From Heptranchias perlo (lineage: Eukaryota): a stretch of DNA of 64,000 nt. The stretch spans positions 24,428,001 through 24,492,000 of the forward strand of contig NC_090359.1 of NCBI RefSeq assembly GCF_035084215.1, given 5' to 3'. Below, piece by piece: positions 18,615 to 64,000 of this stretch. Position numbers and translations under genes: made by a program. Under the pieces are notes generated by a model. The model was given only the letters and a program-made list of their open reading frames with translations, was not told where the DNA came from and did no database searches. The first letter of the stretch is position 1. Each line of letters opens with the position of its first letter.

Positions 18615-21600
18615 ATGGGCGGGGCATACAATGGGCGGGGCGTTCAAGGGGCGGGGCATACAATGGGCAGGGCGTTCAAGGGGCGGGGCATACAATGGGC
18701 AGGGCGTATACCGGGCAGGATGTATAATGGGCGGGGCGTATAATGGATGGGATGTATGATGAGCAGGATGTTTAGCGGGTGTGGGCTATAACGGGCAGAG
18801 CGTATAACGGGAAGGGTATACAACGGGAAGGGTATATAACGGGAAGGGTATACAACGGGAAGGGTATATAACGGGAAGGGTATATAAAGGGAAGGGTATA
18901 TAACGGGAAGGGTATATAACGGGAAGGGTATATAATGGGAAGGGTATATAACGGGAAGGGTATATAACGGGAAGGGTATATAACGGGAAGGGTATATAAA
19001 GGGAAGGGTATATAACGGGAAGGGTATATAAAGGGAAGGGTATATAACGGGAAGGGTATATAACGGGAAGGGTATTTAACGGGAAGGGTATATAATGGGA
19101 GCGGTATATAACGGGAAGGGTATATAACAGGAAGGGTATATAAAGGGAAGGGTATATAACGGGAAGGGTATATAAAGGGAAGGGTATATAAAGGGAAGGG
19201 TATATAACGGGAAGGGTATATAAAGGGAAGGGTATATAACGGGAAGGGTATATAACGGGAAGGGTATATAATGGGAGCGGTATATAACGGGAAGGGTATA
19301 TAACGGGAAGGGTATATAACAGAAAGGGTATATAACGGGAAGGGTATATAAGGGGAAGGGTATATAATGGGAAGGGTATATAACGGGAAGGGTATATTAC
19401 AGGAGAGGTATATAACGGGAGGGGTGTATAACGGGAAGGGTATATAACGGGAAGGATATATAACGGGAAGGGTATATAACGGGAAGGATATATAACGGGA
19501 AGGGTATATAACGGGAAGGGTATATAACGGGAAGGGTATATAACGGGAAGGATATATAACGGGAAGGGTATATAAAAGGAAGGGTATATAACGGGAAGGA
19601 TATATAACGGGAAGGGTATATAACGGGAAGGATATATAACGGGAAGGGTATATAACGGGAAGGGTATATAACAGGAAGGGTATATAACGGGAAGGATATA
19701 TAACGGGAAGGGTATATAACGGGAAGGGTATATAACGGGAAGGATATATAACGGGAAGGGTATATAACGGGAAGGGTATATAACGGGAAGGGTATATAAC
19801 GGGAAGGATATATAACGGGAAGGGTATATAACGGGAAGGATATATAACGGGAAGGGTATATAACGGGAGGGGTATATAACGGGAGGGGTATATAACGGAA
19901 AAGATATATAACGGGATGGATATATAACGGGAAGGGTATATAACGGGAGGGGTATATAACGGGAGGGGTATATAAAGGGAAGGGTATATAACGGGAAGGG
20001 TATATAATGGGAAGGGTATATAACGGGAGGGGTATATAACGGGAAGGGTATATAACGGGAAGGGTATATAACGGGAAGGATATATAACGGGAAGGGTATA
20101 TAACGGGAAGGGTATATAACGGGAAGGGTATATAACGGGAAGGGTATATAACAGGAAGGGTATATAACGGGAAGGATATATAACAGGAGAGGTATATAAC
20201 GGGAAGGATATATAACGGGAAGGATATATAACGGGAAGGGTATATAACGGGAAGGATATATAACGGGAAGGGTATATAACGGGAAGGATATATAACGGGA
20301 AGGGTATATAACGGGAAGGGTATATAACAGGAGAGGTATATAACGGGAAGGATATATAACGGGAAGGGTATATAACGGGAGAGGTATATAACGGGAAGGG
20401 TATATAACGGGAAGGATATATAACGGGAGGGGTATATAACGGGAAGGGTATATAACGGGAAGGGTATATAACAGGAGAGGTATATAACGGGAAGGATATA
20501 TAACGGGAAGGGTATATAACGGGAGAGGTATATAACGGGAAGGGTATATAACGGGAAGGGTATATAATGGGAAGGGTATATAACGGGAGGGGTATATAAC
20601 GGGAAGGATATATAACGGGAAGGGTATATAACGGGAGGGGTATATAACGGGAAGGATATATAACGGGAAGGGTATATAACGGGAGGGGTATATAACGGGA
20701 AGGATATATAACGGGAGGGGTATATAACGGGAAGGGTATATAACGGGAAGGATATATAACGGGAGGGGTATATAAAGGGAAGGGTATATAACGGGAAGGG
20801 TATATAATGGGAAGGGTATATAACGGGAAGGGTATATAACGGGAGGGGTATATAACGGGAAGGATATATAACGGGAAGGGTATATAACGGGAAGGATATA
20901 TAACGGGAAGGGTATATAACGGGAAGGGTATATAACGGGAAGGATATATAACGGGAAGGGTATATAACGGGAAGGATATATAACGGGAGGGGTATATAAA
21001 GGGAAGGGTATATAACGGGAAGGGTATATAATGGGAAGGGTATATAACGGGAAGGGTATATAACGGGAAGGGTATATAACGGGAAGGGTATATAACGGGA
21101 AGGATATATAACGGGAAGGGTATATAACGGGAAGGATATATAACGGGAAGGGTATATAACGGGAAGGATATATAACGGGAAGGGTATATAACGGGAAGGG
21201 TATATAACGGGAAGGGTATATAACGGGAAGGGTATATAACAGGAAGGGTATATAACGGGAAGGATATATAACGGGAAGGGTATATAACAGGAAGGGTATA
21301 TAACGGGAAGGATATATAACGGGAAGGGTATATAACGGGAAGGGTATATAACGGGAAGGATATATAACGGGAAGGATATATAACGGGAAGGGTATATAAC
21401 GGGAAGGGTATATAACGGGAAGGGTATATAACGGGAAGGGTATATAACGGGAAGGGTATATAACGGGAAGGGTATATAACGGGAAGGGTATATAACGGGA
21501 AGGGTATATAATGGGAAGGGTATATAACGGGAAGGGTATATAACGGGAGGGGTATATAACGGGAAGGGTATATAACGGGAGGGGTATATAACGGGAAGGG

Positions 21601-22974
21601 TATATAAAGGGAAGGGTATATAACGGGAAGGGTATATAACAGGAAGGATATATAACGGGAAGGGTATATAACGGGAAGGGTATATAACAGGAAGGGTATA
21701 TAACGGGAAGGATATATAACGGGAAGGGTATATAACGGGAAGGGTATATAACGGGAAGGGTATATAACGGGAAGGGTATATAACGGGAAGGATATATAAC
21801 GGGAAGGATATATAACGGGAAGGGTATATAACGGGAAGGGTATATAACGGGAAGGATATATAACGGGAAGGGTATATAACGGGAAGGGTATATAACGGGA
21901 AGGATATATAACGGGAAGGGTATATAACGGGAAGGGTATATAACGGGAAGGGTATATAACGGGAAGGATATATAACGGGAAGGGTATATAACGGGAAGGG
22001 TATATAAAGGGAAGGGTATATAACGGGAAGGATATATAACGGGAAGGGTATATAACGGGAAGGGTATATAACGGGAAGGATATATAACAGGAAGGATATA
22101 TAACGGGAAGGGTATATAACGGGAAGGGTATATAACGGGAAGGATATATAACGGGAAGGGTATATAACGGGAAGGGTATATAACGGGAAGGGTATATAAC
22201 GGGAAGGGTATATAACGGGAAGGATATATAACGGGAAGGGTATATAACGGGAAGGATATATAACGGGAAGGGTATATAACGGGAAGGGTATATAACGGGA
22301 AGGATATATAACGGGAAGGGTATATAACGGGAAGGGTATATAACAGGAAGGATATATAACGGGAAGGGTATATAACGGGAAGGGTATATAACGGGAAGGA
22401 TATATAACGGGAAGGGTATATAACGGGAAGGGTATATAACGGGAAGGATATATAACGGGAAGGGTATATAACGGGAAGGGTATATAACAGGAAGGATATA
22501 TAACGGGAAGGGTATATAACGGGAAGGGTATATAACGGGAAGGGTATATAACAGGAAGGATATATAACGGGAAGGGTATATAACGGGAAGGGTATATAAC
22601 GGGAAGGATATATAACGGGAAGGGTATATAACAGGAAGGATATATAACGGGAAGGGTATATAACGGGAAGGGTATATAACGGGAAGGGTATATAACGGGA
22701 AGGGTATATAACGGGAAGGGTATATAACAGGAAGGATATATAACGGGAAGGGTATATAACGGGAAGGGTATATAACGGGAAGGATATATAACGGGAAGGG
22801 TATATAACGGGAAGGGTATATAACGGGAAGGGTATATAACAGGAAGGATATATAACGGGAAGGGTATATAACGGGAAGGGTATATAACGGGAAGGATATA
22901 TAACGGGAAGGGTATATAACGGGAAGGGTATATAACGGGAAGGGTATATAACAGGAAGGATATATAACGGGAAG
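18615..22974. repeat. 16-bp satellite (taacgggaagggtata), ~270 units, with G/C-richer diverged units at the left end
   Basis: 16-aa repeat in the ORF track equals 3x16 nt. Confidence 0.98.
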
Positions 22975-27993: not shown

Positions 27994-28200
27994 TGAGTCA
28001 CAACCATGTGACAATCATAACATTTCCTAACTGAGTAACAATTCCTCTCACCACTACTGGTCAGGGAGGATTGGCCAATGTGGAGAGTACCCTCCAGTCA
28101 CGAAAGTGAACGTCACACTTTGTGATGTCTGTGTTACTATAACCACAGCTGAATAAATAGCATTTGCCGGTTCCCTTCTTGCTCAGTGTTTGGTTTCCTG
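27994..28200 (+). promoter_or_regulatory. Candidate promoter/enhancer of the IgV gene: AP-1, double CCAAT, ISRE-like, RUNX, TATA-like, ETS
   Basis: TGAGTCA 27994-28000; ATTGGCCAAT 28070-28079; GAAAGTGAAC 28102-28111; AACCACA 28141-28147; gaataaatag; ggtttcctg. Confidence 0.4.
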
Positions 28201-28252
28201 CCGCTTAGACACTCACTGTGGGCTAAGTGTTCATTCCTTTCTTTCTTCGCAG

Positions 28253-28316
28253 GACGTTTCAGGAAACTACTTGAAGTCTTTAACATCTGTCGGCTGATCT
28301 CCCCCTGCTTTGGACG
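28253..28316 (+). other. Probable non-coding 5'UTR exon of the IgV gene
   Basis: Strong acceptor (ttcctttctttcttcgcag), donor acg|gtgagt, no ATG, 1.5 kb upstream of the leader exon. Confidence 0.55.
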
Positions 28317-28545
28317 GTGAGTATTGCTTGCCAGTTGCTTTTTTTTTTCGTTTCCGAGCTGTGATTGCCCCAGACTGGTCCAGAGAGAAATCTGGGACCA
28401 AAACGGTCTGTCACCCCAACCTTCATTTCGAGGAGGGTCACGAGAATCATCCCTTGTTGAAAAGCCCTTAGTTATCAAAATGGACGTTGAGAGCTGGGTC
28501 TTTACCCTAGCAATGTGTGGGGTGATTTAATTGAAAAAATAAATA

Positions 28546-29782: not shown

Positions 29783-30026
29783 TGACCCCTGTGACCTTTA
29801 ATGTGACCCAAGGGATTAAGTCTGTGCTGACGGATTTGGTTTCTACTCTCTCTCTCTCTCTCGGCAGGACCGCAGTGATTGAAGCGATGGCCTCCCTGTA
29901 CTTGAGTGCGGCCCTCGGTCTGCTTCTAGTTGCTGGATGCTCGCTCGCTGGTAAGGCAATGTCGCTCTCTACCTGCCCTTCCTGTAATGGCGTCTTGTGC
30001 TCGGACAGGTCAAAGGTCAGGGTTCA
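29783..30026. promoter_or_regulatory. Six nuclear-receptor half-sites flanking the leader exon (DR3 plus a third site upstream; DR1-DR1 downstream)
   Basis: TGACCCctgTGACCTttaatgTGACCC 29783-29809; AGGTCAaAGGTCAgGGTTCA 30007-30026. Confidence 0.5.
29887..29950 (+). CDS. Coding exon 1 (signal peptide MASLYLSAALGLLLVAGCSLA) of a single-IgV B7-family-like GPI-type protein; the exon starts at 29868
   Basis: (tc)n-ggcag acceptor, Kozak gcgATGG, hydrophobic leader ending S-L-A, phase-1 donor ctg|gtaagg. Confidence 0.9.
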
Positions 30027-30079
30027 CCCTCACGATTTCGCCCTGGCGACCAGTGAGAGCCTGGACTGCGGGGAATAAA

Positions 30080-30880
30080 CGTGAGGCGGTGCATTTTGGT
30101 AGGAAGAATAAGGAGGCCTCGTACTGCTTGGATAATAAGTCTAAACGAGATAGAGAAGCAGAGGGATCTAGGGGTACAGATGCACAAATCACTAAAAGTA
30201 GCGACACAGGTTAATAAGGCCATAAAAAAGACAAATCAAACACTAGAATTCATTTCTAGAGGGATAGAATTGAAAAGCAAAGAAGTTATGTTAAACATGT
30301 ATAGAACCTTGGTTAGACCACACTTGGAGTATTGTACACAGCTCTGGTCTCCATATTATAGAAAGGATATAGAGGCATTGGAGAGGGCGCAAAAAAGATT
30401 CACAAGGATGATACCAGAACTGAGAGGATATCCTTATCAGGAAAGGCTGAACAGGCTGGGGCTCTTTTCTTTAGAAAAGAGAAGGCTGAGGGGCGACCTG
30501 ATAGAGGTCTTTAAGATAATGATAGGGTTTGATAGGGTAGATGCAGAGAAAATGTTTCCACTTGTGGGGGAGACCAGAACAACAGGTCATAAATATAAAA
30601 TAGTCACTAATTCAGGAGAAACTCCTTTACCCAGAGAGTGGTGAGAATGTGGAACTCGCTCCCACAAGGAGTAGTTGAGGTGAATAGCAGAGATGCATTT
30701 AAGGGGAAGCTGGATAAACACATGAGGGAGAAAGGAATAGAAGGATATGCTGATAGGGTGAGATGAAGTAGGGAGGGAGGAGGCTCGTGTGGAGCATAAA
30801 CACCAGCATAGACCAGTTGGGCCGAATGGCCTGTTTCTGTGCTGTAGTTTCGATGTATCTCGATGTAACTCAATGTAATT
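30080..30880 (+). mobile_element. CR1 LINE 3' fragment (ORF2 C-terminus + 3'UTR) in the leader-V intron
   Basis: RDLGV...LVRPHLEYC...LGLFSLEKRRLRGDLIEVFK. Confidence 0.93.
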
Positions 30881-31024
30881 AAGCACAGGGCCCCTCGCCT
30901 GATCTCCATGCACTCACAGACATGTGCACTTTCCCGTTGGGTTGGTGAGGTGCATCATGGATGATTTCCATCACCCACCCCATCCCCCCATCCAGACCAA
31001 ACGCACTGACGCTAGTGAATGTCA

Positions 31025-31930
31025 ATGAAATGTGTTTGTCAGTTTCCATCCAGTTCCCAGTGGGCCAAAGCCCATGACAACGGATTAGCACTAAATTGCC
31101 GTTCTCACTCTGACACTCCATTTTGGTACAGGAAGTGGGCAACTCCCACTGGTGCTGTAGTGCGTTAGAGTGCATAGAGGGAGCTTTACTTTGTATCTAA
31201 CCCGTGATGTACCTGCCCCTGGGAGTGTTTGATGGGACAGTGTAGAGGGAGCTTTACTCTGTATCGAACCCGTGCTGTACCTGCCCTGGGAGTGTTTGAT
31301 GGGACAGTGTAGAGGGAGCTTTACTCTGTATCGAACCCGTGCTGTACCTGCCCTGGGAGTGTTTGATGGGACAGCGTAGAGGGAGCTTTACTCTGTATCG
31401 AACCCGTGCTGTACCTGCCCTGGGAGTGTTTGATGGGACAGTGTAGAGGGAGCTTTACTCTGTATCTAACCCGTGCGGTACCTGCCCTGGGAGTGTTTGA
31501 TGGGACAGTGTCGAGGGAGCTTTACTCTGTATCTAACCTGTGCTGTACCTGCCCTGGGAGTGTTTGATGGGACAGTGTAGAGGGAGCTTTACTCTGTATC
31601 GAACCCGTGCTGTACCTGCCCTGGGAGTGTTTGATGGGACAGTGTAGAGGGAGCTTTACTCTGTATCTAACCTGTGCTGTACCTGCCCTGGGAGTGTTTG
31701 ATGTGACAGTGTAGAGGGAGCTTTACTCTGTATCTAACCCATGTTTATGTACCTGCCCTGGGAGTGTTTGATGGGACAGTGTAGAGGGAGCTTTACTCTG
31801 TATCTAACCCATGTTTATGTACCTGCCCTGGGAGTGTTTGATAGTGACACTGAGCTCTTGAAATGGAATATTGTTCAATTTCCCAGCTCTATTTCCCCTC
31901 ACCTTCATGAACATAAGTTGCCAATAAAAA
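31025..31930 (+). mobile_element. LF-SINE-related retroposon containing an internal 67-68 bp tandem expansion (31175-31840)
   Basis: Flanks tgaaatgtgtttg...tccagttcccagtgg and caccttcatgaacataagttgccaataaaa resemble the LF-SINE body and tail as recalled; the array is directly visible. Confidence 0.55.
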
Positions 31931-32019
31931 GATAAACAATAAGTTCTCAAGGGTAGTTTATCTGATTCAACATTTTTATTAGTTATTCACAGAAATACTG
32001 TGGCATTGATAGATGGAAA

Positions 32020-32830
32020 GAAAGAGAAATAGAGACAGAGGCGGAGTGAGAAAACAGACAGAAAACAACAGAAGGAGAGACAGAGATAGAGACAGATTGT
32101 TAGGGACATAAAGAGAGGCAAACAGAGAAAGATAGAGAGACAGAGATTGTTATAGGTATAGAGAGAGGCAAACAGAGAAAGGTGGAGAGACAGAGATAGA
32201 GAGACAGAGATTGTTAGAGACATAGAGAGAGGCTAACAGAGAAAGGTGGAGAGACAGAGATTGTTATAGGCATAGAGAGAGGCTAACAGAGAAAGATAGA
32301 GAGACAGAGATTGTTATAGGTATAGAGAGAGGCTAACAGAGAAAGGTGGAGAGACAGAGATAGAGAGACAGAGATTGTTAGAGACATAGAGAGGCAAACA
32401 GAGAAAGATAGAGAGACAGAGATTGTTATAGGCATAGAGAGAGGCAAACAGAGAAAGAAAGAGAGACAGAGATTGTTATAGGCATAGAGAGAGGCTAACA
32501 GAGAAAGGTGGAGAGACAGAGATGGAGAGAGAGATTGTTAGAGACTTAGAGAGAGGCAAACAGAGAAAGATAGAGAGACAGAGATAGAGAGACAGAGATT
32601 GTTAGAGACATAGAGAGAGGTAAACAGAGAAAGATGGAGAGACAGAGATAAAGAGAGAGATTGTTAGAGACATAGAGAGAGGCTAATAGAGAAAGATAGA
32701 GAGACAGAGATAGAGATCAAGAGAGAATGAGACAGGTAGACAAAAAAAGAGATATAGAGGCAGTTAGCGAGATGGTGATAGAGAGATAAATATTGATATC
32801 TAGATAGGCAAGACAGAGGGACAGCTGTAA
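32020..32830. repeat. GA-rich degenerate tandem repeat (gagacagagattgttataggcatagagagaggc...)
   Basis: Direct reading. Confidence 0.9.
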
Positions 32831-32908
32831 GGAGCTGGGAGAGTTGAGTGTGTTTGAAGTGAGAGGCACAGCTCGGTACTGACTGGGTTTATGTGTCTCT
32901 TTTCCCAG

Positions 32909-33262
32909 AGAGCATTAAGTGTGAGATGAATCGAAACAGAGTGATGGCCCGCAGTGGGGACACTACTTCACTGCCCTGCCACTTCAGCACCAGCGGACAG
33001 TCGGAGCAGCTGCTGAAAGTGGCCTGGCAGACAAAGGTCGGTCTCGTGGTGCACGCAGAGAATAGCACGATGGTGTGGACGGAATCGCAGGACGAGGCGT
33101 TTAAAAGCCGCACCTCCATGTTTCCCTCGTGGCATCGAACCGGCAACGCGACCCTGCAGATCACCCAGGTGCGGCCCAGTGATTCTGGGAGTTACACCTG
33201 TTACATAAGAACGGATCAGCGGCCGACAATATGCGCTCAACTGGACTTGACGGTGAATGCAG
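32909..33262 (+). CDS. Coding exon 2: Ig V-set domain of B7/butyrophilin type (VTCN1/HHLA2/CD276-like)
   Basis: 354-nt phase 1-1 exon (ttttcccag| ... gcag|gtacga); LPC-x15-W, QDEAFKSRTSMF, GNATLQI, DSGSYTCY and LTV motifs. Confidence 0.95.
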
Positions 33263-33679
33263 GTACGAGAGCACGTTTCTTTCGCTGAATCGAATGCGGC
33301 CGTTCCCGTCAAGGGAATGCTACCCCTCGGCCGGTGCTGAATTGGCCGTGTTCAGCCGGGGTTAACGGTTGGGGTGCTGCGATTTTGGCCTCAGTGCCCT
33401 CCCTAGGCCCGCGGGTGGGTGGATCCTCATCGTCAGCCTTGTTAGAAAGTGGCAGGAAGTGCGAGCAGTGGACGGGAAGGGGCTATGGCTGCGATGTCCC
33501 CACCCCACAACCATGGTAGAATAGCCCGATTGCTGGCCCGGTCCCTGCATACAGCTGGGTCGATGAATCAGAGGGTGGCAGGCTCCTGCAGAACCATGAC
33601 CCAGCGAGGGGAGAGGGCGGGGGGTGGGGGTGAGGCAACCCTTTTGGGCCATTCAACCATGGGGAGCATCGTGGCCCAA

Positions 33680-34700
33680 CAGAGAGTAGTGGTGAACGGT
33701 TGTTTTTTGGACTGGAGGGAAGTGTCCAGTGGTCAGTGCTGGGACCACTGCTTTTGTTGATATATATTAGTGACTTGGACTTGGGTGTACAAGGCACAAT
33801 TTCAAAATTTGCAGATGACACAAAACTTGGAAGAGTAGTGAACAGTGAGGAGGATAGTGATAGACTTCAAGAGGATATAGACAGGCTGGTGGAATGGGCG
33901 GACACGTGGCAGATGAAATTTAACCCAGAAAAATGCGAAGTGATACATTTTGGTAGGAAGAACGAGGAGAGGCAATATAAACTAAAGGGCACAATTCTAA
34001 AAGTGGTACAGGAACAGAGAGATCTGGGGGTATATGTGCACAAATCATTGAAGGTAGCAGGGCAGGTTGAGAAAGCGGTTAAAAAAGCATACGGGATCCT
34101 GGGCTTTATAAATAGAGGCATAGAGTACAAAAGCAAGGAAGTCATGATGAACCTTTATAAAACACTGGTTCGGCCACAACTGGAATATTGTGTCCAGTTC
34201 TGGGCACCGCACTTTAGGAAAGATGTGAAGGCCTTAGAGAGGGAGCAGAAGAGATTTACTAGAATGATTCCAGGGATGAGGGACTTTAGTTACGTGCATA
34301 GACTGGAGAAGCTGGGGTTGTTCTCCTTGGAACAGAGACAGTTGTGAGGAGATTTGATTGAGGTGTTCAAAATCATGAAGGGTCCAGACAGGCAGAGTAG
34401 ATAGAGAGAAACTGTTCCCATTGGCGGAAGGGTCAAGAACCAGAGAACATAGATTTAAGGCAAAAGAATCAAAGGTGACATGAGGAAAAACTTTTTTACA
34501 CAGCGAGTGGTTGTGATCTGGAATGCACTGCCCGAGGGGGTGGTGGAGGCAGATTCAATCATGGCCTTCAAAAGGGAATTGGATAAGTACTTGAAAGGAA
34601 AAAATGTGCAGGGCTACGGGGATAGGGCGGGGGAGTGGGACTAGCTGGATAGCTCTTGCCGGCGCGGACTCGATGGGCCGAATGGCCTTTCAATGATTCT
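33680..34700 (+). mobile_element. CR1 LINE fragment (RT C-terminal half to 3'UTR)
   Basis: SVLGPLL...KFADDTKL...WQMKFNPEKC...RPQLEYCVQFW. Confidence 0.95.
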
Positions 34701-34714
34701 ACGCAGCGACGGGA

Positions 34715-34925
34715 TTCAACAACCTGCATTTATATAGCACCTTTAACGTAGTGAAAACGTCCCACGGTGCTTTGCAGGAGCGATTACCAAACGAAATTTG
34801 ACACCGAGCCACGTTAGGAGATATTAGGACAGGTGACCAAAAGCTTGGTCAAAGAGGTAGGTTTTAAGGAGCGTCTTCAAGGAGGAGAGAGGGGCGGAGG
34901 GGTTTAGGGAGGGAATTCCAGAGCG
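34715..34925 (-). mobile_element. L2 3' end fragment
   Basis: Matches the L2 tails at 29190-29440 and 54480-54700. Confidence 0.8.
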
Positions 34926-35028
34926 TTTTCCACCTTCGAGATGTTCTCTAAATTCAAGTCGTCGTTCTTCTTCTCTCTCCACGCTGGTTCCAATTCACCA
35001 AACTTCCATTTCTTTCTCGTTCAAACAG

Positions 35029-35108
35029 CTGGGGCCGTCAGATGCTGTGGAGACCTCTCTGCCTGGATCATGACTCTACTACTGCCACTGGCGAAGCTTC
35101 TAACTTGA
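35029..35108 (+). CDS. Coding exon 3: terminal exon (A)GAVRCCGDLSAWIMTLLLPLAKLLT*, probable GPI-anchor signal
   Basis: Long polypyrimidine tract + aacag acceptor; phase 1 matches the V-exon donor; small residues N-A-A-G, polar spacer, hydrophobic C-terminus, stop TGA 35106-35108. Confidence 0.75.
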
Positions 35109-35189
35109 TTTGCAATCCTGTGTTTCTGAGGTGGGTCCCCACATAGGCCTCACTCCACCAAGAGAGCTGGCTAACGCCTGATAACCTTT

Positions 35190-38100
35190 CCGCCTGACTC
35201 CCTCCGGTCGTTTCTCCCGGGGCGGGGGGACGGAGTGAAAGAAACTTTTTTCAACGCTGGCTGTAACGGTGAAGCAGGCCCCAGCCTCACACCCAGCTAG
35301 CCCACGGTCCGAAGCTCAAAGATTTACGTCATGGGCCAAGAGGTGAAGGGGAGGTTGGGTTGCAGGTGGCTCCTGGCACAGCAGAAAACCAGCCCCGCGA
35401 TATCTTGCTAACCCTGCAGGACTTCCCGAGGAGCAGATACTTTGACCCCTTTGTGCCCCCGCAGAACAAGGAACGGACGCTAGCGGTCCACGTATTTAAC
35501 CCACATGTGCCCGTCATGGATGTGCTGATTTCCCTCAAGCGATATGTGGACAGAGCGGGTCAAAGCACGGACATCGCGGACGTGCATGGGATCTGGTCCA
35601 GCATGAGGAGCATCCAAGGGAAGCTGAGGACGGAGGCCAACAGAAACAGCCCCCATCAGGTTTCGTGATCGGGACAAGCCAGGTGGTGTACCAGGGGCAG
35701 CCCCAGAGTGTGCCGATCCTGCGGCAAACCCAAGCACGAGGCAGCCTCCGGCAAGGCAGTGATCTGCAGGAACTGCAGGAAGGAGGGCCGCCAGACACCG
35801 GACTGTCAGGAGGCCAAGTGCTGCAGCCTGTGCGGAGAGGCTGGTCGCCCGTCCGAGACGTGCCCAAACCGCAGGCTCAGCTACGCACGGGCAGCGAGAG
35901 GCGAGGAGAACAGGGCAGCAGTCGTGGCTGCCCCTAAGGAGGCCAGGCCGCTCCCCAACGCTGTGATCCCACGTGAAAGGGCCAACAGCCAGGTGGAGGA
36001 TGAAGAGCAGGAAGGGAGAGTCGAGGTAAGGAACCAAACCCCAATACCCAGCCCCGAGACCTTCCCTGAGAACGCAGAGCCGATGGAAAGAGAACCAGGG
36101 AACGGTAGAAGGATGGATGATACAAGCAAAAGCGGAGGTCCCGCAGGACCAGAGGCACAAACGCCAAAGGTGCGGCCAGCAGCAAGAGAAGCTTAGAGTC
36201 CCCAACGGACAATAGCGACCAGTCCTCGGACGATGAGCAAGGAAAAAGGAGGAAAGCCCACCTTCATCAAAGGACGAGGCAAAACGCAACAGTGACCGGT
36301 AACACCGACAACGCTCTCCAGCTCCAGGAACCTGGGAGCAGCAACGTTCAGCTTCGGGGCACTGGGAGCAGCGACGCGCCCAATGCACCCCAACTCCGGA
36401 ATGCCAGGGGCAGCAACGCGGAGAGCGAGGTCCCCCAACTCCGGGCAACCGGGGGCAGCACGGTGGCGGTGGAGAGCGAGGCACCAACGACAGCCGAGGA
36501 GCCTGACCTGGCCGAGGATCTCACGGACACACCACCCCACGAGAGCCCGCCGTTGACCCCTGAGCGCGGACCCTCCCCCAATGGAGGACAGGCCTCCTTC
36601 CTCAGCCCAAGGACCGTCCAGAAGTTCCTGCACACCACACAAATGCAGAATCCGGACCGAGGGTCCCAAATGGACAGTAACACAGAACCCGGACTGATAC
36701 GATTGTGAGACCATAATGTTTTGTTCTTTTGTATTTTTAAAATGGATTTGAAAAATTACATCCATAAACGTGCATGGTATCGTGGCGTAACCCTGAACTA
36801 CCTGTCCAGAGTCAAGAGGGATCTGCTGTTCTTGCAGGATCCTGCACCTCAGCAACTACCGGCAGTGGTCATGCACGTGTACCCAGGGGCAGTCGATCTG
36901 GTCAGGAGGCAACGCCAACCGTTCCTCGGGCCTGGGGATTCTGCTGCGAGGAGGCCGATTTACCATCACCGAGGTTAAGGAGGTGGTGGTGGTGGGGGGG
37001 CCGCCTGCTCGTAGCAGACGTTCTGTACAAGAACGCCCCTCTCCGACTGATCAATGTGTACGCCCCGACCCTCAGGAGCGAGTGGCTGGAGGTCTCCCAA
37101 CATCTCCCAATGCTGCCAGCGATCTCCAGGCCGATCGTTCTCACCAGAGACTTCAGCTGCATCATCGATGCGGCTGGACGATCCAGCAGGGGCGGAGGTA
37201 TGCTAGACACCACGTCCAAACTCCCGATGGAGGCGGTGAAAGCCGCAAAGCTTCGCGACGTCTCCAGCAACCCTGCAGACGGAGCGCCGCAGAGATGCAC
37301 CTGCTCCAGGCCAGGCGGGTCCGTCCGTTCCAGGATAGACTTCCCATTCGTATCTCCAACACTCAAGGTCAGATCCACCGACGTCCAGCTAGTGTTCTTC
37401 TCTGACCACTGCCTCCTACTGGCCGACTGTCAATCGCAGGAGGACCAGAGGGCGGGCAGCGGGGTATGGAAGGTGAACGTGAGACTGTTGACCCCAGTGA
37501 ACATCGAGGAACTAGAGAGGGATTGCACTGGTGGGAAGCGATCATGGCCAACATCAAGAGGTTCTTCATCCTCAACGGTGTTCAGAAGGCGAGAGAGAGA
37601 GAGACAGAGGGAAGTGTCACAACTCCAGAAAAGCATGCAGGATCTGCTGCAGTCGATGGGGGTCGATGTCAGGGAGGAACTCCGAGAGGTGAAGGGCCAG
37701 CAAGCCTCGCTCTTCGCCTCCGAGGCCTCCAAGATCATCTTCCGGTCCAGGGTCCGCTCCGTGGAGCAGGGCGAGAAGTGCTCGTGCTTCTTCTTCCAGA
37801 AGCTGCACAGAGAGAGACCTCTGTGGTCAGCAGCCTGAAAGAGGAAGACGGCTCGGTGACATCCTCGCAGGCCGACACACTGAGGATCAGCAAATCCCTT
37901 TATGCCGGGCTGTATGACGCGAAGCCCACGGACAGCATGGCCTCCCAGCCCTTCCTGTCCTCTATCACAGAGATCTTACAGGACAGCGAGCGGGAGAGCA
38001 CGGATTGGCCACTGACCTTGGACGAGCTGACAGAGGCCGTCCGGTCCTTCGAGAAGAGCAGAACTCCCGGAAACTTACCGGTCGAGTTGCTCTCGGCTCT

Positions 38101-38499
38101 GTGGGACTGGATAGGCCCAGACCTGCTGGAAGTGTAGGGGGCGGGGCGGGCATGCTATTGGCAGGCAGCATGCCAGAGTCTGAGGAATGGCATCATCACC
38201 CTCATCGACAAGCGGAAGGGGGGGAGAGGGAAGAAATCAGAAATTGGCAAACCCATCTCCTTGTTAAAGGTCGACTACAAGATTCTGTCCAAGGCCATCT
38301 CCAACAGGCTCAAGTCTGACCTGTTCTGTACCTGGAAGGACAATCTCTGATTGTAACAATGAGATCATAGTGTCTATGATCTGCACTGTATTGCTTTGAA
38401 CTTCTGTGTCACATTTCATGCCCTTTATTGAACTGTGTTTAAACCGTGTGTATCTTTAAATTTTATGAAATAAAGTATATTTTGAAATGTAAAGAAAAA
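35190..38499 (+). mobile_element. Degenerate Tx1/L1-clade non-LTR retrotransposon: ORF1 (zinc knuckles, ZCCHC3-like), ORF2 endonuclease and RT start, internally deleted, 3'UTR with poly(A) signal
   Basis: CRSCGKPKH / CRNCRKEG / CSLCGEAG knuckles; LLFLQ, RLINVYAP, SRIDF, FSDH endonuclease motifs; VDYKILSKAISNRLK then a jump to 3'UTR at ~38350; AATAAA 38469-38474; many frameshifts. Confidence 0.9.
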
Positions 38500-40177
38500 C
38501 CTTGCTAACCATTATACATTGGAAAGGTGACTCGGGGGAGGTTATAACACCACCACATCCTTCCTCGGAGTGAGATGGTTGCCTTGTATGAAATCGCCGA
38601 TGAGTGCAGCTTCCTCGTCCTCCCCCCCCCACTGCTTTTTTCTCTCCAGCCACACCAAGGGACCCGAGTGCGTCCCTCATCTCACCAACCCTCTCCGTGA
38701 GGTGAGGGGAGGAGGAGGTGAGAGGGGCGGCTGGAGATGCACTTGGGAGGGCGGTCGGCCGAGGGACTCGCGATGCTCTTCGAATGGCCGCCTTTTAGTT
38801 CGGGGGGCTGAGTGTTGGTCAAGAGTCCAATTGACCACTTGGCTGAAGACTTGCGTCAACCCTTGAGGTGTCAAAGGTCACCCTCAACACCAAAGACTGG
38901 TTGAGATGAACAGCCAGCGTTCCCCGTTTGTGCATTCCCCGAAACTCTGCTCTGTAACATTTTTGGAACTTTTATATAACTTGGAAGGTAATTCAATGCC
39001 AACAAGTAATGGCCCCAGTGCCCTCTTCTACCTCTGGGTTCTCTGAGCGTCTCTCCACAAGGTGGTAACCTGTGCTGGAGCCTGGTTTCAAGGGCACTGT
39101 TACCTCACCGAGCGGCGGAGAGGATGGACCTTATTCCCACCGTACCAGCAAGGGGTAGGGGGAAGAGGGGGTGGAAGGGGTTTCGTGAGGAGTAAATCTA
39201 CCTCAGAGTCTTAACAAAATTCCAAAAATTATCCCGCTCCGTCTAATTTTCAGCGTGAATTCTACATACTGTATAAAAAAACAACCCAGGGCCAAAATTG
39301 GACCTCCCGTGGCGTTGCTCTTGCTGGGCGTGCCCCATCTCTGAGTCGGCCATCTTAGTTCTCTGCTGCCTTTCCCTTCTCTTGAGTGCTGTTTTCCGTC
39401 TCCGCCTCTTCGGCGTGGCCCCCTCGATAATGCACCAGGCAGCGATCCGGACGGTTACGCTCCGTTCCCACCCAGCCCCCCCACCACCCGCGTGCCCGTC
39501 GGCGGCCTCTAGCGTTGACCGTAATACTTTAGAAAGGACGAGCGGCCTGGGATTTATGTGGTGCCTTATCAGGCCTGGCGGAAACACCTCAAAACACTTC
39601 CCATCCAAAGAGTTACTCTGGAGTGCAGCGAATGTTATGCAGGCAGATCCAGCAAAGACCAGATATTGATGTGCGTTTGGCGGTGTTGCTTGAGGTGCTA
39701 ATGTTGGCCCAGGTCACCCGTGGAGGGCTCCATGCCATGCCTTCTTCCATGCCATGCCATGTGATTGGGGTGTCCTCTGAAGAACGGCGCCCAATCACCA
39801 ACAACATTCACGGGAAGAATGATTCTGATTGAGTCATGTGAGGTTGGCCACATCCCTCGACGAGCGGGAGAGGGAGCAGGATTGGATCGTGCCAGTGGTC
39901 TGCTGGGGACGGACCAATCCAACAGGGCAAATGGCCTTTCTCGTGTGCTCCAGCGGGCCGGAGTTACAAGTCATAGAGAGCTCGGCGAACCCTTACAGAC
40001 CGCAGAGTCCCCCCGGGATGCTGCTCTCAAACACAGAGAATTACATGCCACAGCCCACAAGTCAGCCATGAGCAGCCAGCCATGAGAGGTATCTTCCACC
40101 TCGATCGCTTCAGAGAGTGCGGCCCGCAGTAAAAGGATGGGAAACAACATCATTGTCAACAAGTCAGAACACTTCAA

Positions 40178-43100
40178 CACCCATCACTAACTCTGTATTA
40201 CACAGTGTGTACAGACCCATCACTAACCCTGTATTACACAGTGTTTACAGACCCATCACTAACCCTGTATATTACACAGTGTGTACAGACCCATCATTAA
40301 CCCTGTATTACACAGTGTGCACAGACCCATCACTAACCCTGTATTACACAGTGTGTACAGACCCATCACTAACCCTGTATTACACAGTGTGTACAGACCC
40401 ATCATTAACCCTGTATTACACAGTGTGTACAGACCCATCACTAACCCTGTATTACACAGTGTGTACAGACCCATCACTAACCCTGTATTACACAGTGTGT
40501 ACAGACCCATCACTAACCCTGTATTACACAGTGTGTACAGACCCATCATTAACCCTGTATTACACAGTGTGTACAGACCCATCACTAACCCTGTATTACA
40601 CAGTGTGTACAGACCCATCACTAACCCTGTATTACACAGTGTGTACAGACCCATCACTAACCCTGTATTACACAGTGTGTACAGACCCATCATTAACCCT
40701 GTATTACACAGTGTGTACAGACCCATCACTAACCCTGTATTACACAGTGTGTACAGACCCATCACTAACCCTGTATTACACAGTGTGTACAGACCCATCA
40801 CTAACCCTGTATTACACAGTGTGTACAGACCCATCATTAACCCTGTATTACACAGTGTGTACAGACCCATCACTAACCCTGTATTACACAGTGTGTACAG
40901 ACCCATCACTAACTCTGGATTACACAGTGTGTACAGACCCATCACTAACCCTGTATTACACAGTGTGTACAGACCCATCACTAACCCTGTATTACACAGT
41001 GTGTACAGACCCATCACTAACCCTGTATTACGCAGTGTGTACAGACCCATCACTAACCCTGTATATTACACAGTGTGTACAGACCCATCACTAACTCTGT
41101 ATTACACAGTGTGTACAGACCCATCATTAACCCTGTATTACACAGTGTGTACAGACCCATCACTAACCCTGTATTACACAGTGTGTACAGACCCATCATT
41201 AACCCTGTATTACACAGTGTGTACAGACCCATCACTAACCCTGTATTACACAGTGTGTACAGACCCATCACTAACCCTGTATTACACAGTGTGTACAGAC
41301 CCATCACTAACCCTGTATTACACAGTGTGTACAGACCCATCATTAACCCTGTATTACACAGTGTGTACAGACCCATCACTAACCCTGTATTACACAGTGT
41401 GTACAGACCCATCAATAACCCTGTATTACACAGTGTGTAAAGACCCATCATTAACCCTGTATTACACTGTGTGTACAGACCCATCACGAACCCTGCATAT
41501 TACACAGTGTGTACAGACCCATCACTAACCCTGTATTACACAGTGTGTACAGACCCATCACTAACCCTGTATTACACAGTGTGTACAGACCCATCATTAA
41601 CCCTGTATTACACAGTGTGTACAGACCCATCATTAACCCTGTATTACACAGTGTGAACAGACCCATCACTAACCCTGTATTACACAGTGTGTACAGACCC
41701 ATCACTAACCCTGTATATTACACAGTGTGTACAGACCCATCACTAACCCTGTATAACACAGTGTGTACAGACCCATGATTAACCCTGTATTACACTGTGT
41801 GTACAGACCCATCACTAACCCTGTATTACACAGTGTATACAGACCCATCACTAACCCTGTATTACACAGTGTGTACAGACCCATCACTAACCCTGTATTA
41901 CACAGTGTGCACAGACCCATCATTAACCCTGTATTACACAGTGTGTACAGACCCATCACTAACCCTGTATTACGCAGTGTGTACAGACCCATCACTAACC
42001 CTGTATATTACACAGTGTGTACAGACCCATCACTAACACTGTCTTACACAGTGTGTACAGACCCATCACTAACCCTGTATTACACAGTGTGTACAGACCC
42101 ATCATTAACCCTGTATTACACAGTGTGTACAGACCCATCACTAACCCTGTATTACGCAGTGTGTACAGACCCATCACTAACCCTGTATTACGCAGTGTGT
42201 ACAGACCCATCACTAACCCTGTATTACACAGTGTGTACAGACCCATCACTAACCCTGTATTACGCAGTGTGTACAGACCCATCACTAACCCTGTATATTA
42301 CACAGTGTGTACAGACCCATCACTAACCCTGTCTTACACAGTGTGTACAGACCCATCACTAACCCTGTATTACACAGTGTGTACAGACCCATCATTAACC
42401 CTGTATATTACACAGTGTGTACAGACCCATCACTAACCCTGTATTACACAGTGTGCACAGACCCATCATTAACCCTGTATTACACAGTGTGTACAGACCC
42501 ATCACTAACCCTGTATTACGCAGTGTGTACAGACCCATCACTAACCCTGTCTTACACAGTGTGTACAGACCCATCACTAACCCTGTATTACACAGTGTGT
42601 ACAGACCCATCACTAACCCTGTATTACACAGTGTGTACAGACCCATCACTAACTCTGTATTACACAGTGTGTACAGACCCATCACTAACCCTGCATTACA
42701 CAGTGTATACAGACCCATCACTAACTCTGTATTACACAGTGTGTACAGACCCATCACTAACCCTGTATTACACAGTGTGTACAGAACCATCACCAACCCT
42801 GTATTACACAGTGTGTACAGACCCATCACTAACCCTGTATTACACAGTGTATACAGACCCATCACTAACTCTGTATTACACAGTGTGTACAGACCCATCA
42901 CTAACCCTGCATTACACAGTGTATACAGACCCATCACTAACTCTGTATTACACAGTGTGTACAGACCCATCACTAACCCTGCATTACACAGTGTGTACAG
43001 ACCCATCACCAACCCTGTATTACACAGTGTGTACAGACCCATCATTAACCCTGTATATTACACAGTGTGTACAGACCCATCACTAACCCTGTATATTACA

Positions 43101-45752
43101 GTGTGTACAGACCCATCATTAACCCTGTATTACACAGTGTGTACAGACCCATCACTAACCCTGTATATTACACAGTGTGTACAGACCCATCATTTACCCT
43201 GTATTACACAGTGTGTACAGACCCATCACTAACCCTGTATATTACACAGTGTGTACAGACCCATCACTAACCCTGTATTACACAGTGTATACAGACCCAT
43301 CATTAACCCTGTATTACACTGTGTGTACAGACCCATCACGAACCCTGTATTACACAGTGTATACAGACCCATCACTAACCCTGTATTACACAGTGTGCAC
43401 AGACCCATCATTAACCCAGTATTACACAGTGTGTACAGACCCATCACTAACCCTGTATTACGCAGTGTGTACAGACCCATCACTAACCTTGTATATTACA
43501 CAGTGTGAACAGACCCATCACTAACCCTGTATATTACACAGTGTGTACAGACCCATCACTAACCCTGTATTACACAGTGTGTACAGACCCATCACTAACC
43601 CTGTATTACACAGTGTGTACAGACCCATCACTAACCCTGTATATTACACAGTGTGTACAGACCCATCACTAACCCTGTATTACACAGTGTTTACAGACCC
43701 ATCATTAACCCTGTATTACACTGTGTGTACAGACCCATCACTAACCCTGTATTACACAGTGTGTACAGACCCATCATTAACCCTGTATTACACAGTGTGT
43801 ACAGACCCATCACTAACCCTGTATTACACATTGTGCACAGATCATTAACCCTGTATTACACAGTGTGTACAGACCCATCACTAACCCTGTATTACGCAGT
43901 GTGTACAGACCCATCACTAACCCTGTACATTACACAGTGTGTACAGACCCATCACTAACCCTGTATTACACAGTGTGTACAGACCCATCATTAACCCTGT
44001 ATTACACAGTGTGTACAGACCCATCACTAACCCTGCATTACACAGTGTGTACAGACCCATCACTAACCCTGTATTACACAGTGTGTACAGACCCATCACT
44101 AACCCTGTACTACACAGTGTGTACAGACCCATCACTAACCCTGCATAACACAGTGTGTACAGAACCATCACCAACCCTGTATTACACAGTGTGTACAGAC
44201 CCATCATTAACCCTGTATATTACACAGTGTGTACAGACCCATCACTAACCCTGTATATTACACAGTGTGTACAGACCCATCATTAACCCTGTATTACACA
44301 GTGTGTACAGACCCATCACCAACCCTGTATTACACAGTGTGTACAGACCCATCATTAACCCTGTATATTACACAGTGTGTACAGACCCATCACTAACCCT
44401 GTATATTACACAGTGTGTACAGACCCATCATTAACCCTGTATTACACAGTGTGTACAGACCCATCACTAACCCTGTATATTACACAGTGTGTACAGACCC
44501 ATCATTTACCCTGTATTACACAGTGTGTACAGACCCATCACTAACCCTGTATATTACACAGTGTGTACAGACCCATCATTTACCCTGTATTACACTGTGT
44601 GTACAGACCCATCACTAACCCTGTATATTACACAATGTGTACAGACCCATCACTAACCCTGTATTACACAGTGTGTACAGACCCATCACTCACTCTGTAT
44701 TACACAGTGTGTACAGACCCATCATTAACCCTGTATTACACAGTGTGTACAGACCCATCACTAACCCTGTATTACACAGTGTGTACAGACCCATCACTAA
44801 CCCTGTAATACAGTGTGTACAGACCCATCATTAACCCTGTATTACACAGTGTGTACAGACCCATCATTAACCCTGTATTACACAGTGTGTACAGACCCAT
44901 CATTAACCCTGTATTACACAGTGTGAACAGACCCATCACTAATCCTGTATTACACAGTGTGTACAGACCCATCACTAACCCTGTATATTACACAGTGTGT
45001 ACAGACCCATCATTAACCCTGTATTACACAGTGTGTACAGACCCATCATTAATCCTGTATTACACAGTGTGTACAGACCCATCATTAACCCTGTATTACA
45101 CAGAGTGTACAGACCCATCATTAACCCTGTATTACACAGTGTGAACAGACCCATCACTAACCCTGTATATTACACAGTGTGTACAGTCCCATCACTAACC
45201 CTGTATTATACAGTGTGTACAGACCCATCACTAACCCTGTATATTACACAGTGTGTACAGACACATCACTAACCCTGTATTACACAGTGTTTACAGACCC
45301 ATCACTAACCCTGTATTACACAGTGTGTACAGACCCATCACTAACCCTGTATTACACAGTGTGTACAGACCCATCACTAACTCTGTATTACACAGTATGT
45401 ACAGACCCTTCATTAACCCTGTATTACACAGTGTGTACAGACCCATCATTAACCCTGTATTACACAGTGTGTACAGACCCATCATTAACCCTGTATTACA
45501 CAGTGTGTACAGACCCATCACTAACCCTGTATTACACAGTGTGTATTGACCCATCATTAACCCTGTATTACACAGTGTGTACAGACCCATCACTAACCCT
45601 GTATTACACAGTGTGTACAGACCCATCACTAACCCTGTATTACACAGTGTGTACAGACCCATCACTAACCCTGTATTACACAGTGTGTACAGACCCATCA
45701 CTAACCCTGTATTACACAGTGTGTACAGACCCATCACTAACCCTGCATTACA
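40178..45752. repeat. 36-bp (occasionally 38-bp) minisatellite acccatcactaaccctgtattacacagtgtgtacag, ~150 units
   Basis: 12-aa repeats in the ORF track; direct reading. Confidence 0.98.
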
Positions 45753-46234
45753 GAGTGAGCACTGCAGATTCCCTCCTCAATGCAGTGATGCCGCCTCCCT
45801 AAGATCAAGCGAATCACTTGGTTCATTGATGTGAACACAGTTCAGCGTGAATGGTGCCTCACCCCGCTTTGAACTGCCTTTATCAGATGCACCTTTCACC
45901 ACATCACAAGGAGTTATCCGGGAGCCCCAGTGTGACATTTGTGTTTCCCAGGCCCGCTGTGTACATTGGCACTGGGTTTCCTGTGGTGAGACCACGTGTC
46001 AGCTCCCGCCCTGTGCTATTGCATCATGTTCTCAACTCCTCTCTGTGCTTCAGGGCCCTGGTGAGCGCGATCATCAGCTACCACCTCTCATCCTCTGCAC
46101 CACTTCTGTCGTGGCTTCCAATTCACACAACAGAGGTGCTGGCTCCCCGAATGATAAAGTTCCCCTCCATTCTTGTTTACAATGTGACGTAAGACTTGCG
46201 TCCATTTCAAAATGAAACCCGTTTTTGTGTATGA

Positions 46235-63500: not shown

Positions 63501-64000
63501 AGAAACATGGGGTGCGAAACACGGGTGCGAAACAGAGAGTAAGAAACACGGAGTGCGAAACAGAGAGTGAGAAACACGGAGTGAGAACCAGAGAGTGGGA
63601 AACACGGAGTGAGAACCAGAGAGTGGGAAACACGGAGTGAGAAACACACGTGCGAAACAGAGAATGAGAAACACGGAGTGAGAACCAGAGAGTATGAAAC
63701 ACGGAGTGAGAAACACGGGTGCGAAACAGAGAGTAAGAAACACGGAGTGAGAAACAGGCAGTGCGAAACAGAGAGTGAGAAACAGAGAGTGAGAAACATG
63801 GGGTGCGAAACACGGGTGCGAAACAGAGAGTGAGAAACACGGAGTGCGAAACAGAGAGTGAGAAACAGAGAGTGAGAAACAGAGAGTGAGAAACACGGGG
63901 TGCGAAACACGGGTGCGAAACAGAGAGTAAGAAACATGGAGTGCGAAACAGAGAGTGCGAAACAGAGAGTGAGAAACACGGAGTGAGAAACAGAGAGTGA
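57570..64000. repeat. 14-bp satellite (gagtgagaaac[aga/acg/atg]) running off the window end, >6.4 kb
   Basis: 14-aa repeat in all three minus frames equals 3x14 nt. Confidence 0.98.

What the first reader, a model, noticed from the sequence alone, without database searches (positions are those of the whole stretch)
29868..35108. Complete gene for a single-V-domain, probably GPI-anchored B7-family-like protein (Thy-1/CD160-type architecture)
Seen: three exons with canonical splice sites and matching phase-1 junctions (64+354+80 nt = 498 nt). They give a 165-aa protein: leader (1-21), V domain (C45, W61, C119; N-glycosylation sequons N73, N101), then LTVNA-AGAVRCCGDLSAWIMTLLLPLAKLLT*. I found no IgC exon, no full transmembrane helix and no cytoplasmic tail. 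Known: QDEAFKSRTSMF...GNATL..DSGSYTCY is typical of B7/BTN V domains (VTCN1, HHLA2, CD276), which usually have V+C domains and a TM; single-V GPI proteins are exemplified by Thy-1 and CD160. Inference: N138-A-A fits omega to omega+2 with a 27-aa propeptide. This may be an undescribed cartilaginous-fish B7-like ligand or decoy that cannot signal on its own and can be shed. The ORF track does not reveal the terminal exon.
Basis: partly seen in the sequence, partly recalled or inferred. Interest (0 to 1): 0.75.

Follow-up and report, generated by a model that had tools for sequence, protein, structure and literature searches.

The report
Shark-wide lipid-anchored single-domain B7-like protein
This spliced shark gene encodes a small protein with one antibody-like domain related to the B7/butyrophilin immune regulators, kept in the same short form in seven other sharks, rays and chimaeras, which is predicted to hang on the cell surface by a lipid (GPI) anchor and likely serves as a non-signalling ligand for another cell's receptor.

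Summary
Three coding exons give 165 aa, letter for letter RefSeq XP_067828264.1, 'CD276 antigen-like' of Heptranchias perlo. The V-to-tail junction 33262/35029 is spliced in 4 of 4 laid runs (one sample). So the gene model is already annotated. The new point is the family: full-length 162-177 aa relatives in seven other cartilaginous fishes, a chimaera and a ray among them, carry four different automatic names. All eight have leader + one V domain + a 24-28 aa tail too weakly hydrophobic for a membrane span, and an invariant extra Cys pair, C26/C130. They form one clade apart from CD276 (support 0.997; sister unresolved). A GPI anchor is the best reading (about 0.75) but no GPI predictor or experiment was run. 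The V domain is closest to B7-H3, BTN3, MOG, B7-H4 and PD-L1, yet the V+C+TM layout of B7 and the PD-1-binding Asp are absent. Ten literature searches found no description. Partner and function are untested. Verdict: an undescribed, conserved variant of a known kind, of moderate interest.

The parts
28185..28316 (+). Candidate first (non-coding) exon; inferred, not seen in reads
   Evidence: Only G|GTRAG donor between 25000 and 29868 is at 28317; the unlaid letters of the X3 and X4 contigs would place their starts at 28176 and 28208; TATA-like word at 28153 and initiator-like word at 28185. Motif reading is after the fact.
29868..29950 (+). Leader exon: 19 nt of 5' UTR, ATG at 29887, residues 1-21, phase-1 donor
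   Evidence: Acceptor AG before 29868, GT at 29951; identical to the N-terminus of XP_067828264.1; leaders of seven relatives align at 33-62%.
32909..33262 (+). V-set Ig exon, residues 22-139: C45-W61-C119 core, extra Cys pair C26/C130, sequons N73 and N101
   Evidence: Pfam V-set 3.7e-13; model with strands 24-138; covered with no other letters in 4 of 4 runs.
35029..35108 (+). Coding part of the last exon: residues 140-165 and stop; predicted GPI signal peptide
   Evidence: Spliced joint in 4 of 4 runs; tail 29-56% identical in seven relatives, best 19-residue insertion energy +6.1 against -0.5 to -3.9 in 13 of 13 TM controls.
35109..38488 (+). 3' UTR, shown by single contigs to 36448/36622; extension to about 38480 inferred
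   Evidence: Contig pieces; beyond 36622 the pieces are separate and of a multi-copy element.
35273..38320 (+). Decayed LINE (L1/Tx1-like) retrotransposon inside the 3' UTR, same strand
   Evidence: Pfam RBD_ZCCHC3_2nd 1.9e-9 at 35273-35665; CCHC knuckles and endonuclease-like motifs in broken frames (class name recalled, no Pfam hit for those frames).
38469..38474 (+). AATAAA, candidate poly(A) signal at the end of the retroelement
   Evidence: Only AATAAA/ATTAAA between the stop codon and 41000.
33634..34690 (+). CR1-like LINE fragment in intron 2 (not part of the mRNA)
   Evidence: Pfam RVT_1 3.6e-7; skipped by the spliced contigs; subclass name recalled.

Best explanation
The gene is spliced into an mRNA for a 165-residue protein with a leader, one B7/butyrophilin-type V domain and a short hydrophobic tail that is predicted to be swapped for a GPI anchor, so that it would sit on the cell surface without a cytoplasmic part and likely act as a ligand for a receptor on leukocytes. 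Steps: (shown) splicing of V exon to tail exon and the same architecture in eight cartilaginous fishes; (inferred) the leader takes it into the ER, GPI transamidase cuts at N138 or within two residues of it and removes about 25-27 residues; (inferred) the mature domain of about 117 residues carries two N-glycans and two disulfides, C45-C119 and C26-C130, the second pinning strand A to strand G right above the anchor; (inferred) with no stalk it lies close to the membrane, cannot signal by itself, and presents its GFCC' face, where Q62 (8 of 8), E72 (7 of 8) and R122 (7 of 8, Lys in the eighth) are kept; (inferred) soluble forms arise from tail-less splice variants or phospholipase release and could compete with the anchored form.
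For: Junction 33262/35029 in 4 of 4 runs, contigs pass through the stop. Seven full-length relatives at 34-54% identity, E 2e-44 to 6e-21. Tails of 24-28 residues begin with a small-residue cluster, end in 13-19 uncharged residues, have 0-1 Lys/Arg in the last five and no cytoplasmic part in 8 of 8; best 19-mer energy +4.0 to +8.5 against -0.5 to -3.9 in 13 of 13 TM segments from the same hit list (scale values recalled, no positional weighting). This fits the layout in PMC2571997 (passages): omega 20-30 residues from the end, small residues at omega-1 to +2, hydrophobic tail from omega+10; typical omega C, D, G, N, S. Tail identity (29-56%) equals V-domain identity (32-53%), so the tail is kept. 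Best solved relatives by sequence are CD276, BTN3, MOG, B7-H4, PD-L1; by fold B7-H6 Z 16.2, B7-H3 16.0. Extra Cys at -19/+11 from the core Cys in 12 of 12 family proteins. Tail-less isoforms are annotated in Hemiscyllium (141, 142 aa) and Callorhinchus (155 aa).
Against: No GPI predictor or experiment was run. The 11 residues before the proposed omega are strand G in the model, whereas PMC2571997 describes a low-structure linker there. The conserved Gly at 140 is the split codon at the splice junction, so part of its conservation may come from splice signals. The fold search does not single out immune ligands: VCBP3 (Z 16.0), CAR (15.9), nectin-3 and MPZ (15.2) tie with B7 members, and Foldseek mixes PD-L1, CAR and MPZ. 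The F-G loop is variable and the PD-1-binding Asp is absent in 8 of 8. Tissue of expression is unknown. The four runs are one sample and may be the data behind the RefSeq model. In X2, the run with the highest depth, the contig enters the V exon from intron 1 rather than from the leader exon.
Confidence: 0.5

Rival explanations
1. It is GPI-anchored but works as a general adhesion or membrane-organising molecule (Thy-1-, CAR- or MPZ-like) in nerve, epithelium or gametes, not as an immune ligand.
For: CAR, nectin-3 and MPZ tie with B7 members in the fold search; CAR ranks among BTN3 and CD276 in the profile search; a 151-aa cluster automatically named Thy-1 scores 0.93 by language-model features; Thy-1 is also one Ig domain with two disulfides (PMC6305390, passages); one gene per species was found, without the expansion seen in teleost B7/BTN-like genes.
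Against: Sequence searches put CD276 or BTN3 first for all four queries; the top Atlas hit is a VTCN1-named cluster (0.95); orthologue identity of 34-54% is low, as recalled for immune surface proteins.
Confidence: 0.27
2. The tail is not a GPI signal: it is a marginal transmembrane segment without cytoplasmic tail, or the protein is secreted or held in the ER.
For: No predictor was run; the last 19 residues average 1.1-1.7 on the Kyte-Doolittle scale; the model has helices at 151-161, though at pLDDT under 60; tail-less isoforms exist.
Against: 13-19 uncharged residues, a Pro or Lys inside the stretch in most species, no basic stop-transfer cluster, and energies 4.5 kcal/mol or more above the weakest TM control; small-residue cluster at the right distance in 8 of 8.
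Confidence: 0.18
3. It is a strongly diverged orthologue of a described gene (Thy-1, CD160, CD276, B7-H4 or MOG).
For: RefSeq names are CD276-like, MOG-like, PD-L1-like and nectin-2-like; leader/V/tail exon layout resembles Thy-1 (recalled).
Against: The eight sequences form their own clade on a long stem, apart from four CD276 rows; 36% identity over the V domain only to teleost CD276; CD276 is reported present and well conserved in all gnathostomes and CD160 as mammal-specific (PMC13262535, passages).
Confidence: 0.07

Closest known systems
CD276 (B7-H3), VTCN1 (B7-H4), PD-L1
   Same: B7-type V domain: best PDB sequence hits (CD276 per-domain 37-40 bits, B7-H4 34); fold Z 15-16; shared W-Q, VH, Q-x-x-x-F/Y-x-x-R-T and GNA-x-L motifs (alignments).
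   Different: No IgC, no TM, no cytoplasmic tail; extra C26/C130 pair; separate clade; no Asp at the PD-L1 D122 position in 8 of 8.
Butyrophilins (BTN3/BTN2) and MOG
   Same: Profile of the family scores BTN3 V domains at 56-62 bits, the best single-domain PDB matches; MOG has a single V domain (recalled) and is the top Atlas structure row.
   Different: No IgC, TM, heptads or B30.2, which PMC12841164 (part 1 of 4 read) gives as the butyrophilin layout; MOG has membrane segments (recalled).
Thy-1 (CD90) and CD160
   Same: One Ig domain; Thy-1 has two disulfides; CD160 is mainly GPI-linked (PMC6127213, passages).
   Different: Neither is among the best 60 PDB sequence hits shown and no sequence of either was at hand for a direct comparison; CD160 is described as mammal-specific. 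Likeness is of architecture.
Teleost tandem-V 'CD276-like/butyrophilin-like' proteins (e.g. Girardinichthys XP_047242614.1)
   Same: Some of their V domains also hold an A-strand and a G-strand Cys: 14 of 290 non-family domains, in 8 proteins.
   Different: Spacing -16 to -20/+8 to +11, never -19/+11; several V domains, a true TM in the one named; not grouped with the family.

Membership tests
B7 family | N-terminal V-set domain similar to B7 members | tested here: met
B7 family | IgV followed by IgC (typical layout, PMC11599192 passages) | tested here: not met
   V exon splices to the tail exon in 4 of 4 runs; 8 of 8 species have one domain.
B7 family | Transmembrane segment with cytoplasmic tail | tested here: not met
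   8 of 8 tails fall outside the range of 13 TM controls and end without a cytoplasmic part.
B7 family | Nests with a named B7 member in a V-domain tree | tested here: inconclusive
   Own clade 0.997, sister support 0.055; the set held CD276 but no identified shark B7 member.
B7 family | Binds a CD28-family or NCR receptor | not testable with these tools
   No partner sequence at hand, no binding data.
B7 family | Lies in an MHC paralogon (PMC11599192 passages) | not testable with these tools
   No genome held; no neighbouring gene recognised in the window.
PD-L1 orthologues | Conserved D122 that binds PD-1 (PMC12151841 passages) | tested here: not met
   Aligned via mouse PD-L1: Asp in 0 of 8 at position 128 or 129 (Glu in 2 of 8 at 128).
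Butyrophilins | IgV-IgC-TM-B30.2 layout | tested here: not met
GPI-anchored proteins | N-terminal signal peptide | tested here: inconclusive
   Hydrophobic 21-residue leader on its own exon, conserved in position; SignalP not available.
GPI-anchored proteins | Small residues at omega..omega+2, 20-30 residues from the end, then spacer and hydrophobic tail | tested here: met
   Rule-based scan finds candidates in 8 of 8 (rules and recall).
GPI-anchored proteins | Unstructured linker of about 11 residues before omega | tested here: not met
   Residues 127-138 are strand G in the model. PMC2571997 gives this as a rough general feature, not a strict rule.
GPI-anchored proteins | Anchor shown chemically or by PI-PLC release | not testable with these tools
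   Bench test.
Thy-1 / CD160 orthologues | Reciprocal best similarity and shared synteny | not testable with these tools
   No Thy-1 or CD160 sequence was returned by any search; no genome held.

The most novel reading that the evidence does not exclude
Cartilaginous fishes have kept, since before chimaeras split from sharks and rays, a separate B7/butyrophilin-lineage gene that other jawed vertebrates lost or never had: a GPI-anchored, two-disulfide single V domain that regulates lymphocytes as a raft-bound ligand, with secreted splice forms as built-in decoys, possibly for one of the orphan shark CD28-family receptors or for gamma-delta TCR. It would add a member to the ancestral co-signalling set.
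Probability: 0.25. Interest if true: 0.65.

Novelty: new variant of a known kind. Interest (0 to 1): 0.38.

Why it matters
Shark genomes are the reference for what the first adaptive immune system contained. Cartilaginous fishes have CD28-family receptors whose ligands are open (PMC11599192, listing and passages). A conserved single-V B7/BTN-like surface protein that hides under four different automatic names is a concrete candidate ligand and is easy to test by expression mapping and a binding screen. It also warns that 'CD276-like', 'MOG-like' and 'PD-L1-like' RefSeq names in sharks can be one separate gene. If it proves to be a plain adhesion molecule, the value is a corrected annotation. 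Single-V GPI proteins as such are known (Thy-1, CD160), so nothing here is categorically new.

Tried and rejected
No genome is held, so synteny could not be read. Word-index protein searches were weak: searches found only the protein itself, and the profile search found 3 of the 12 known family proteins plus three teleost CD276 entries, so it cannot show absence elsewhere. One search lists only the best 150 of 1634 hits; the Atlas has unnamed chordate single-V clusters of 161-176 aa at 0.93-0.95 that I could not open, so 'restricted to cartilaginous fishes' is not established. Atlas search with the tail alone gave no usable hit. Homodimer prediction: no answer, score 0.00 in two runs, alignment not used; no evidence either way. 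Run search: no RNA holder listed on record; the four laid runs are guessed RNA, and no DNA run was laid beside them. Bins 38656-40100 had next to no cover in 4 of 4 runs; absence of cover proves nothing. A downstream IgC/TM exon: 44 acceptor-like sites after 33300 were translated in phase 1; 11 were flagged, 8 in CT/GT microsatellites, and 3 others (46792, 50556, 56685), of which two lie in repeat-derived sequence; none looked like an Ig or TM exon. The idea that the tail exon is a recent capture from the adjoining retroelement was rejected: the same tail is in seven other species. An IRF-like word at 28102 occurs once, 0.82 expected by chance in the window: not evidence. Literature searches (the Callorhinchus LOC number: 0 papers) found no description of the family; the key paper on B7 evolution in sharks (PMC3709836) is not held, nor most subscription papers; the one supplement of PMC3964593 gave 0 hits for six terms. 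Earlier scan findings: none.
Full report
Observation. 29868 is a splice acceptor 19 nt before the ATG at 29887, so the gene has at least four exons. The middle exon is a V-set domain (Pfam 3.7e-13). The model is thus already annotated, by an automatic name.

Transcript evidence. I laid 4 of the 24 listed runs, the four best holders, on 32800-40100. They are assembled contigs of one sample and one study and only guessed to be RNA; they may underlie the RefSeq model. All four show the joint that skips 1766 nt with GT..AG ends, i.e. 33262 to 35029. Single contigs continue through the stop codon to 36448 (X2) and 36622 (X3), so the tail exon is a terminal exon with a long UTR. That UTR runs over a decayed LINE (ZCCHC3-like RNA-binding domain at 35273-35665); the only AATAAA after the stop up to 41000 is at 38469, and contig pieces end at 38475-38488, but these pieces belong to a multi-copy element, so the mRNA end is inferred. 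At the 5' side, X3 and X4 leave the genome at 32908 with 223 and 191 letters not shown; subtracting the leader exon leaves 141 and 109, which fits an exon ending at the one strong donor at 28317 and starting near a TATA/initiator-like pair at 28153/28185 (inferred). Against a simple picture: X2 enters the V exon from intron 1, and X1 holds both paths (depth arithmetic); that form has no leader. X1 also has a low-depth contig (6 against 82-184) that reads from the V exon into intron 2, which would end the protein eight residues after the domain or be pre-mRNA.

Family. phmmer against 1.84 billion representatives gave 1634 hits, of which the best 150 were listed. Seven were short single-domain proteins matching nearly the whole length; all others were multi-domain or matched the V domain only. 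Their clusters are from Heterodontus, Carcharodon, Hemiscyllium, Mustelus, Scyliorhinus, Mobula and Callorhinchus, named CD276-like, MOG-like, nectin-2-like or PD-L1-like. Full-length forms are 162-177 aa and 34-54% identical to the query. Invariant positions include C26, C45, W61, Q62, A71, W96, C119 and C130. The extra Cys stand at -19 and +11 from the core Cys in 12 of 12 family proteins; among 290 other V domains from the hit list 14 (8 proteins) have some such pair, none with that spacing. In a FastTree tree of 139 domains (best domain per protein, 117 columns; seven redundant rows, domains under 95 aa and under 30 bits left out) the eight species form one clade, support 0.997, stem 0.90, with unresolved sister (0.055) and unresolved inner order; four CD276 rows lie outside. 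The split of chimaeras from elasmobranchs, about 400 million years or more, is recalled. Whether bony vertebrates have the gene is open: the searches were limited (see Tried and rejected).

The tail. After the last V-domain residue all eight have 24-28 residues: a cluster of small residues, a polar spacer, and a hydrophobic end with 13-19 uncharged residues and no cytoplasmic part. The best 19-residue insertion energy is +4.0 to +8.5, against -0.5 to -3.9 for 13 of 13 TM segments that I picked from the same hit list (simple sums of recalled values). This matches the GPI signal layout in the PredGPI paper (PMC2571997, passages), in which Asn and Ser are typical omega residues. N138 fits in this species; position 138 is Arg in Carcharodon and Ile in Mobula, position 139 is Ser in 6 of 8, so omega is best given as 138-140. 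One general feature does not fit: the residues before omega are strand G, not a loose linker. Tail identity equals V-domain identity, so the tail is conserved and not a capture from the neighbouring retroelement. Tail-less isoforms are annotated in Hemiscyllium and Callorhinchus.

The domain. PDB sequence searches rank CD276, MOG, BTN3 and B7-H4 first for the query, CD276, BTN3 and CAR for the family profile, and CD276 and PD-L1 or CAR for the ray and chimaera proteins. The AlphaFold model (10 sequences, mean pLDDT 79) is a V-set sandwich from 24 to 138; structure searches give B7-H6, VCBP3, B7-H3, CAR, PD-L1, nectin-3 and MPZ within about one Z unit and PD-L1, CAR and MPZ by Foldseek, so fold does not decide the family. 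PD-L1 D122, reported conserved to sharks (PMC12151841, passages), has no Asp counterpart in 8 of 8. The placing of Q62, E72 and R122 on the GFCC' face rests on strand alternation and general knowledge of V domains, not on coordinates.

Mechanism. Most likely the protein is a GPI-anchored (about 0.75), non-signalling surface ligand; that its partner is a leukocyte receptor is the better but weaker guess (overall 0.5), resting on B7/BTN kinship of the V domain. An adhesion role is the main rival (0.27), a non-GPI tail next (0.18), hidden orthology to a described gene last (0.07).

Known and new. It works like Thy-1 or CD160 in architecture and resembles B7/BTN in sequence, but fails the V+C+TM layout of B7 (PMC11599192, passages) and of butyrophilins (PMC12841164, first of four parts), so it should not be filed as a member of either. 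Ten searches and term look-ups in PMC12227049, PMC10751288, PMC13262535, PMC6127213 and PMC6305390 (passages only) showed no description; PMC3709836 could not be read, and supplements of the shark IgSF papers, other than that of PMC3964593, were not searched and may list the gene. Verdict: real, annotated but misnamed, conserved, undescribed as far as these searches reach; new variant of a known kind; interest 0.38.

Noticed in passing
window 32601-32908: In run X2 the contig enters the V exon from intron 1 (109 laid bases plus 199 beyond the stretch); X1 holds both paths, X3 and X4 only the spliced one. A leaderless or intron-retaining form that differs between libraries; first in-frame ATG would be M28.
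   Followed up: partly
window 35273-38488: A decayed L1/Tx1-like element supplies most of an approximately 3.4 kb 3' UTR and probably the poly(A) signal; its reverse-transcriptase part is mostly missing.
   Followed up: partly
window 33263-33288: Read-through of the V-exon donor gives a stop after eight residues; a low-depth X1 contig covers this path. Matches the kind of tail-less isoform annotated in Hemiscyllium.
   Followed up: partly
window 28100-28190: IRF-like (28102) and RUNX-like (about 28141) words, TATA-like word and initiator-like word just upstream of the candidate first exon; names recalled, the IRF-like word is within chance for the window.
   Followed up: partly
window 6740-8366 and 31175-31842: The same 67-68 bp minisatellite unit occurs at two places 23 kb apart, 96% match within each array.
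   Followed up: no
window 18787-22974, 40179-45757, 57572-64000: Large tandem arrays (16/32 bp, 36 bp, 14 bp units) that create long spurious ORFs; no other protein-coding gene was recognised in the 64 kb.
   Followed up: no
window 39243-39713 (- strand): Open frame with an AAGATGGCGG-type start word near 39350, no Pfam hit; may be a promoter or element end.
   Followed up: no
P0029, P0009, P0031, P0102, P0131: Tandem-V B7/BTN-like proteins (P0029 is from a teleost) also carry an A-strand/G-strand Cys pair with other spacing; either convergent or a distant link to this family.
   Followed up: partly
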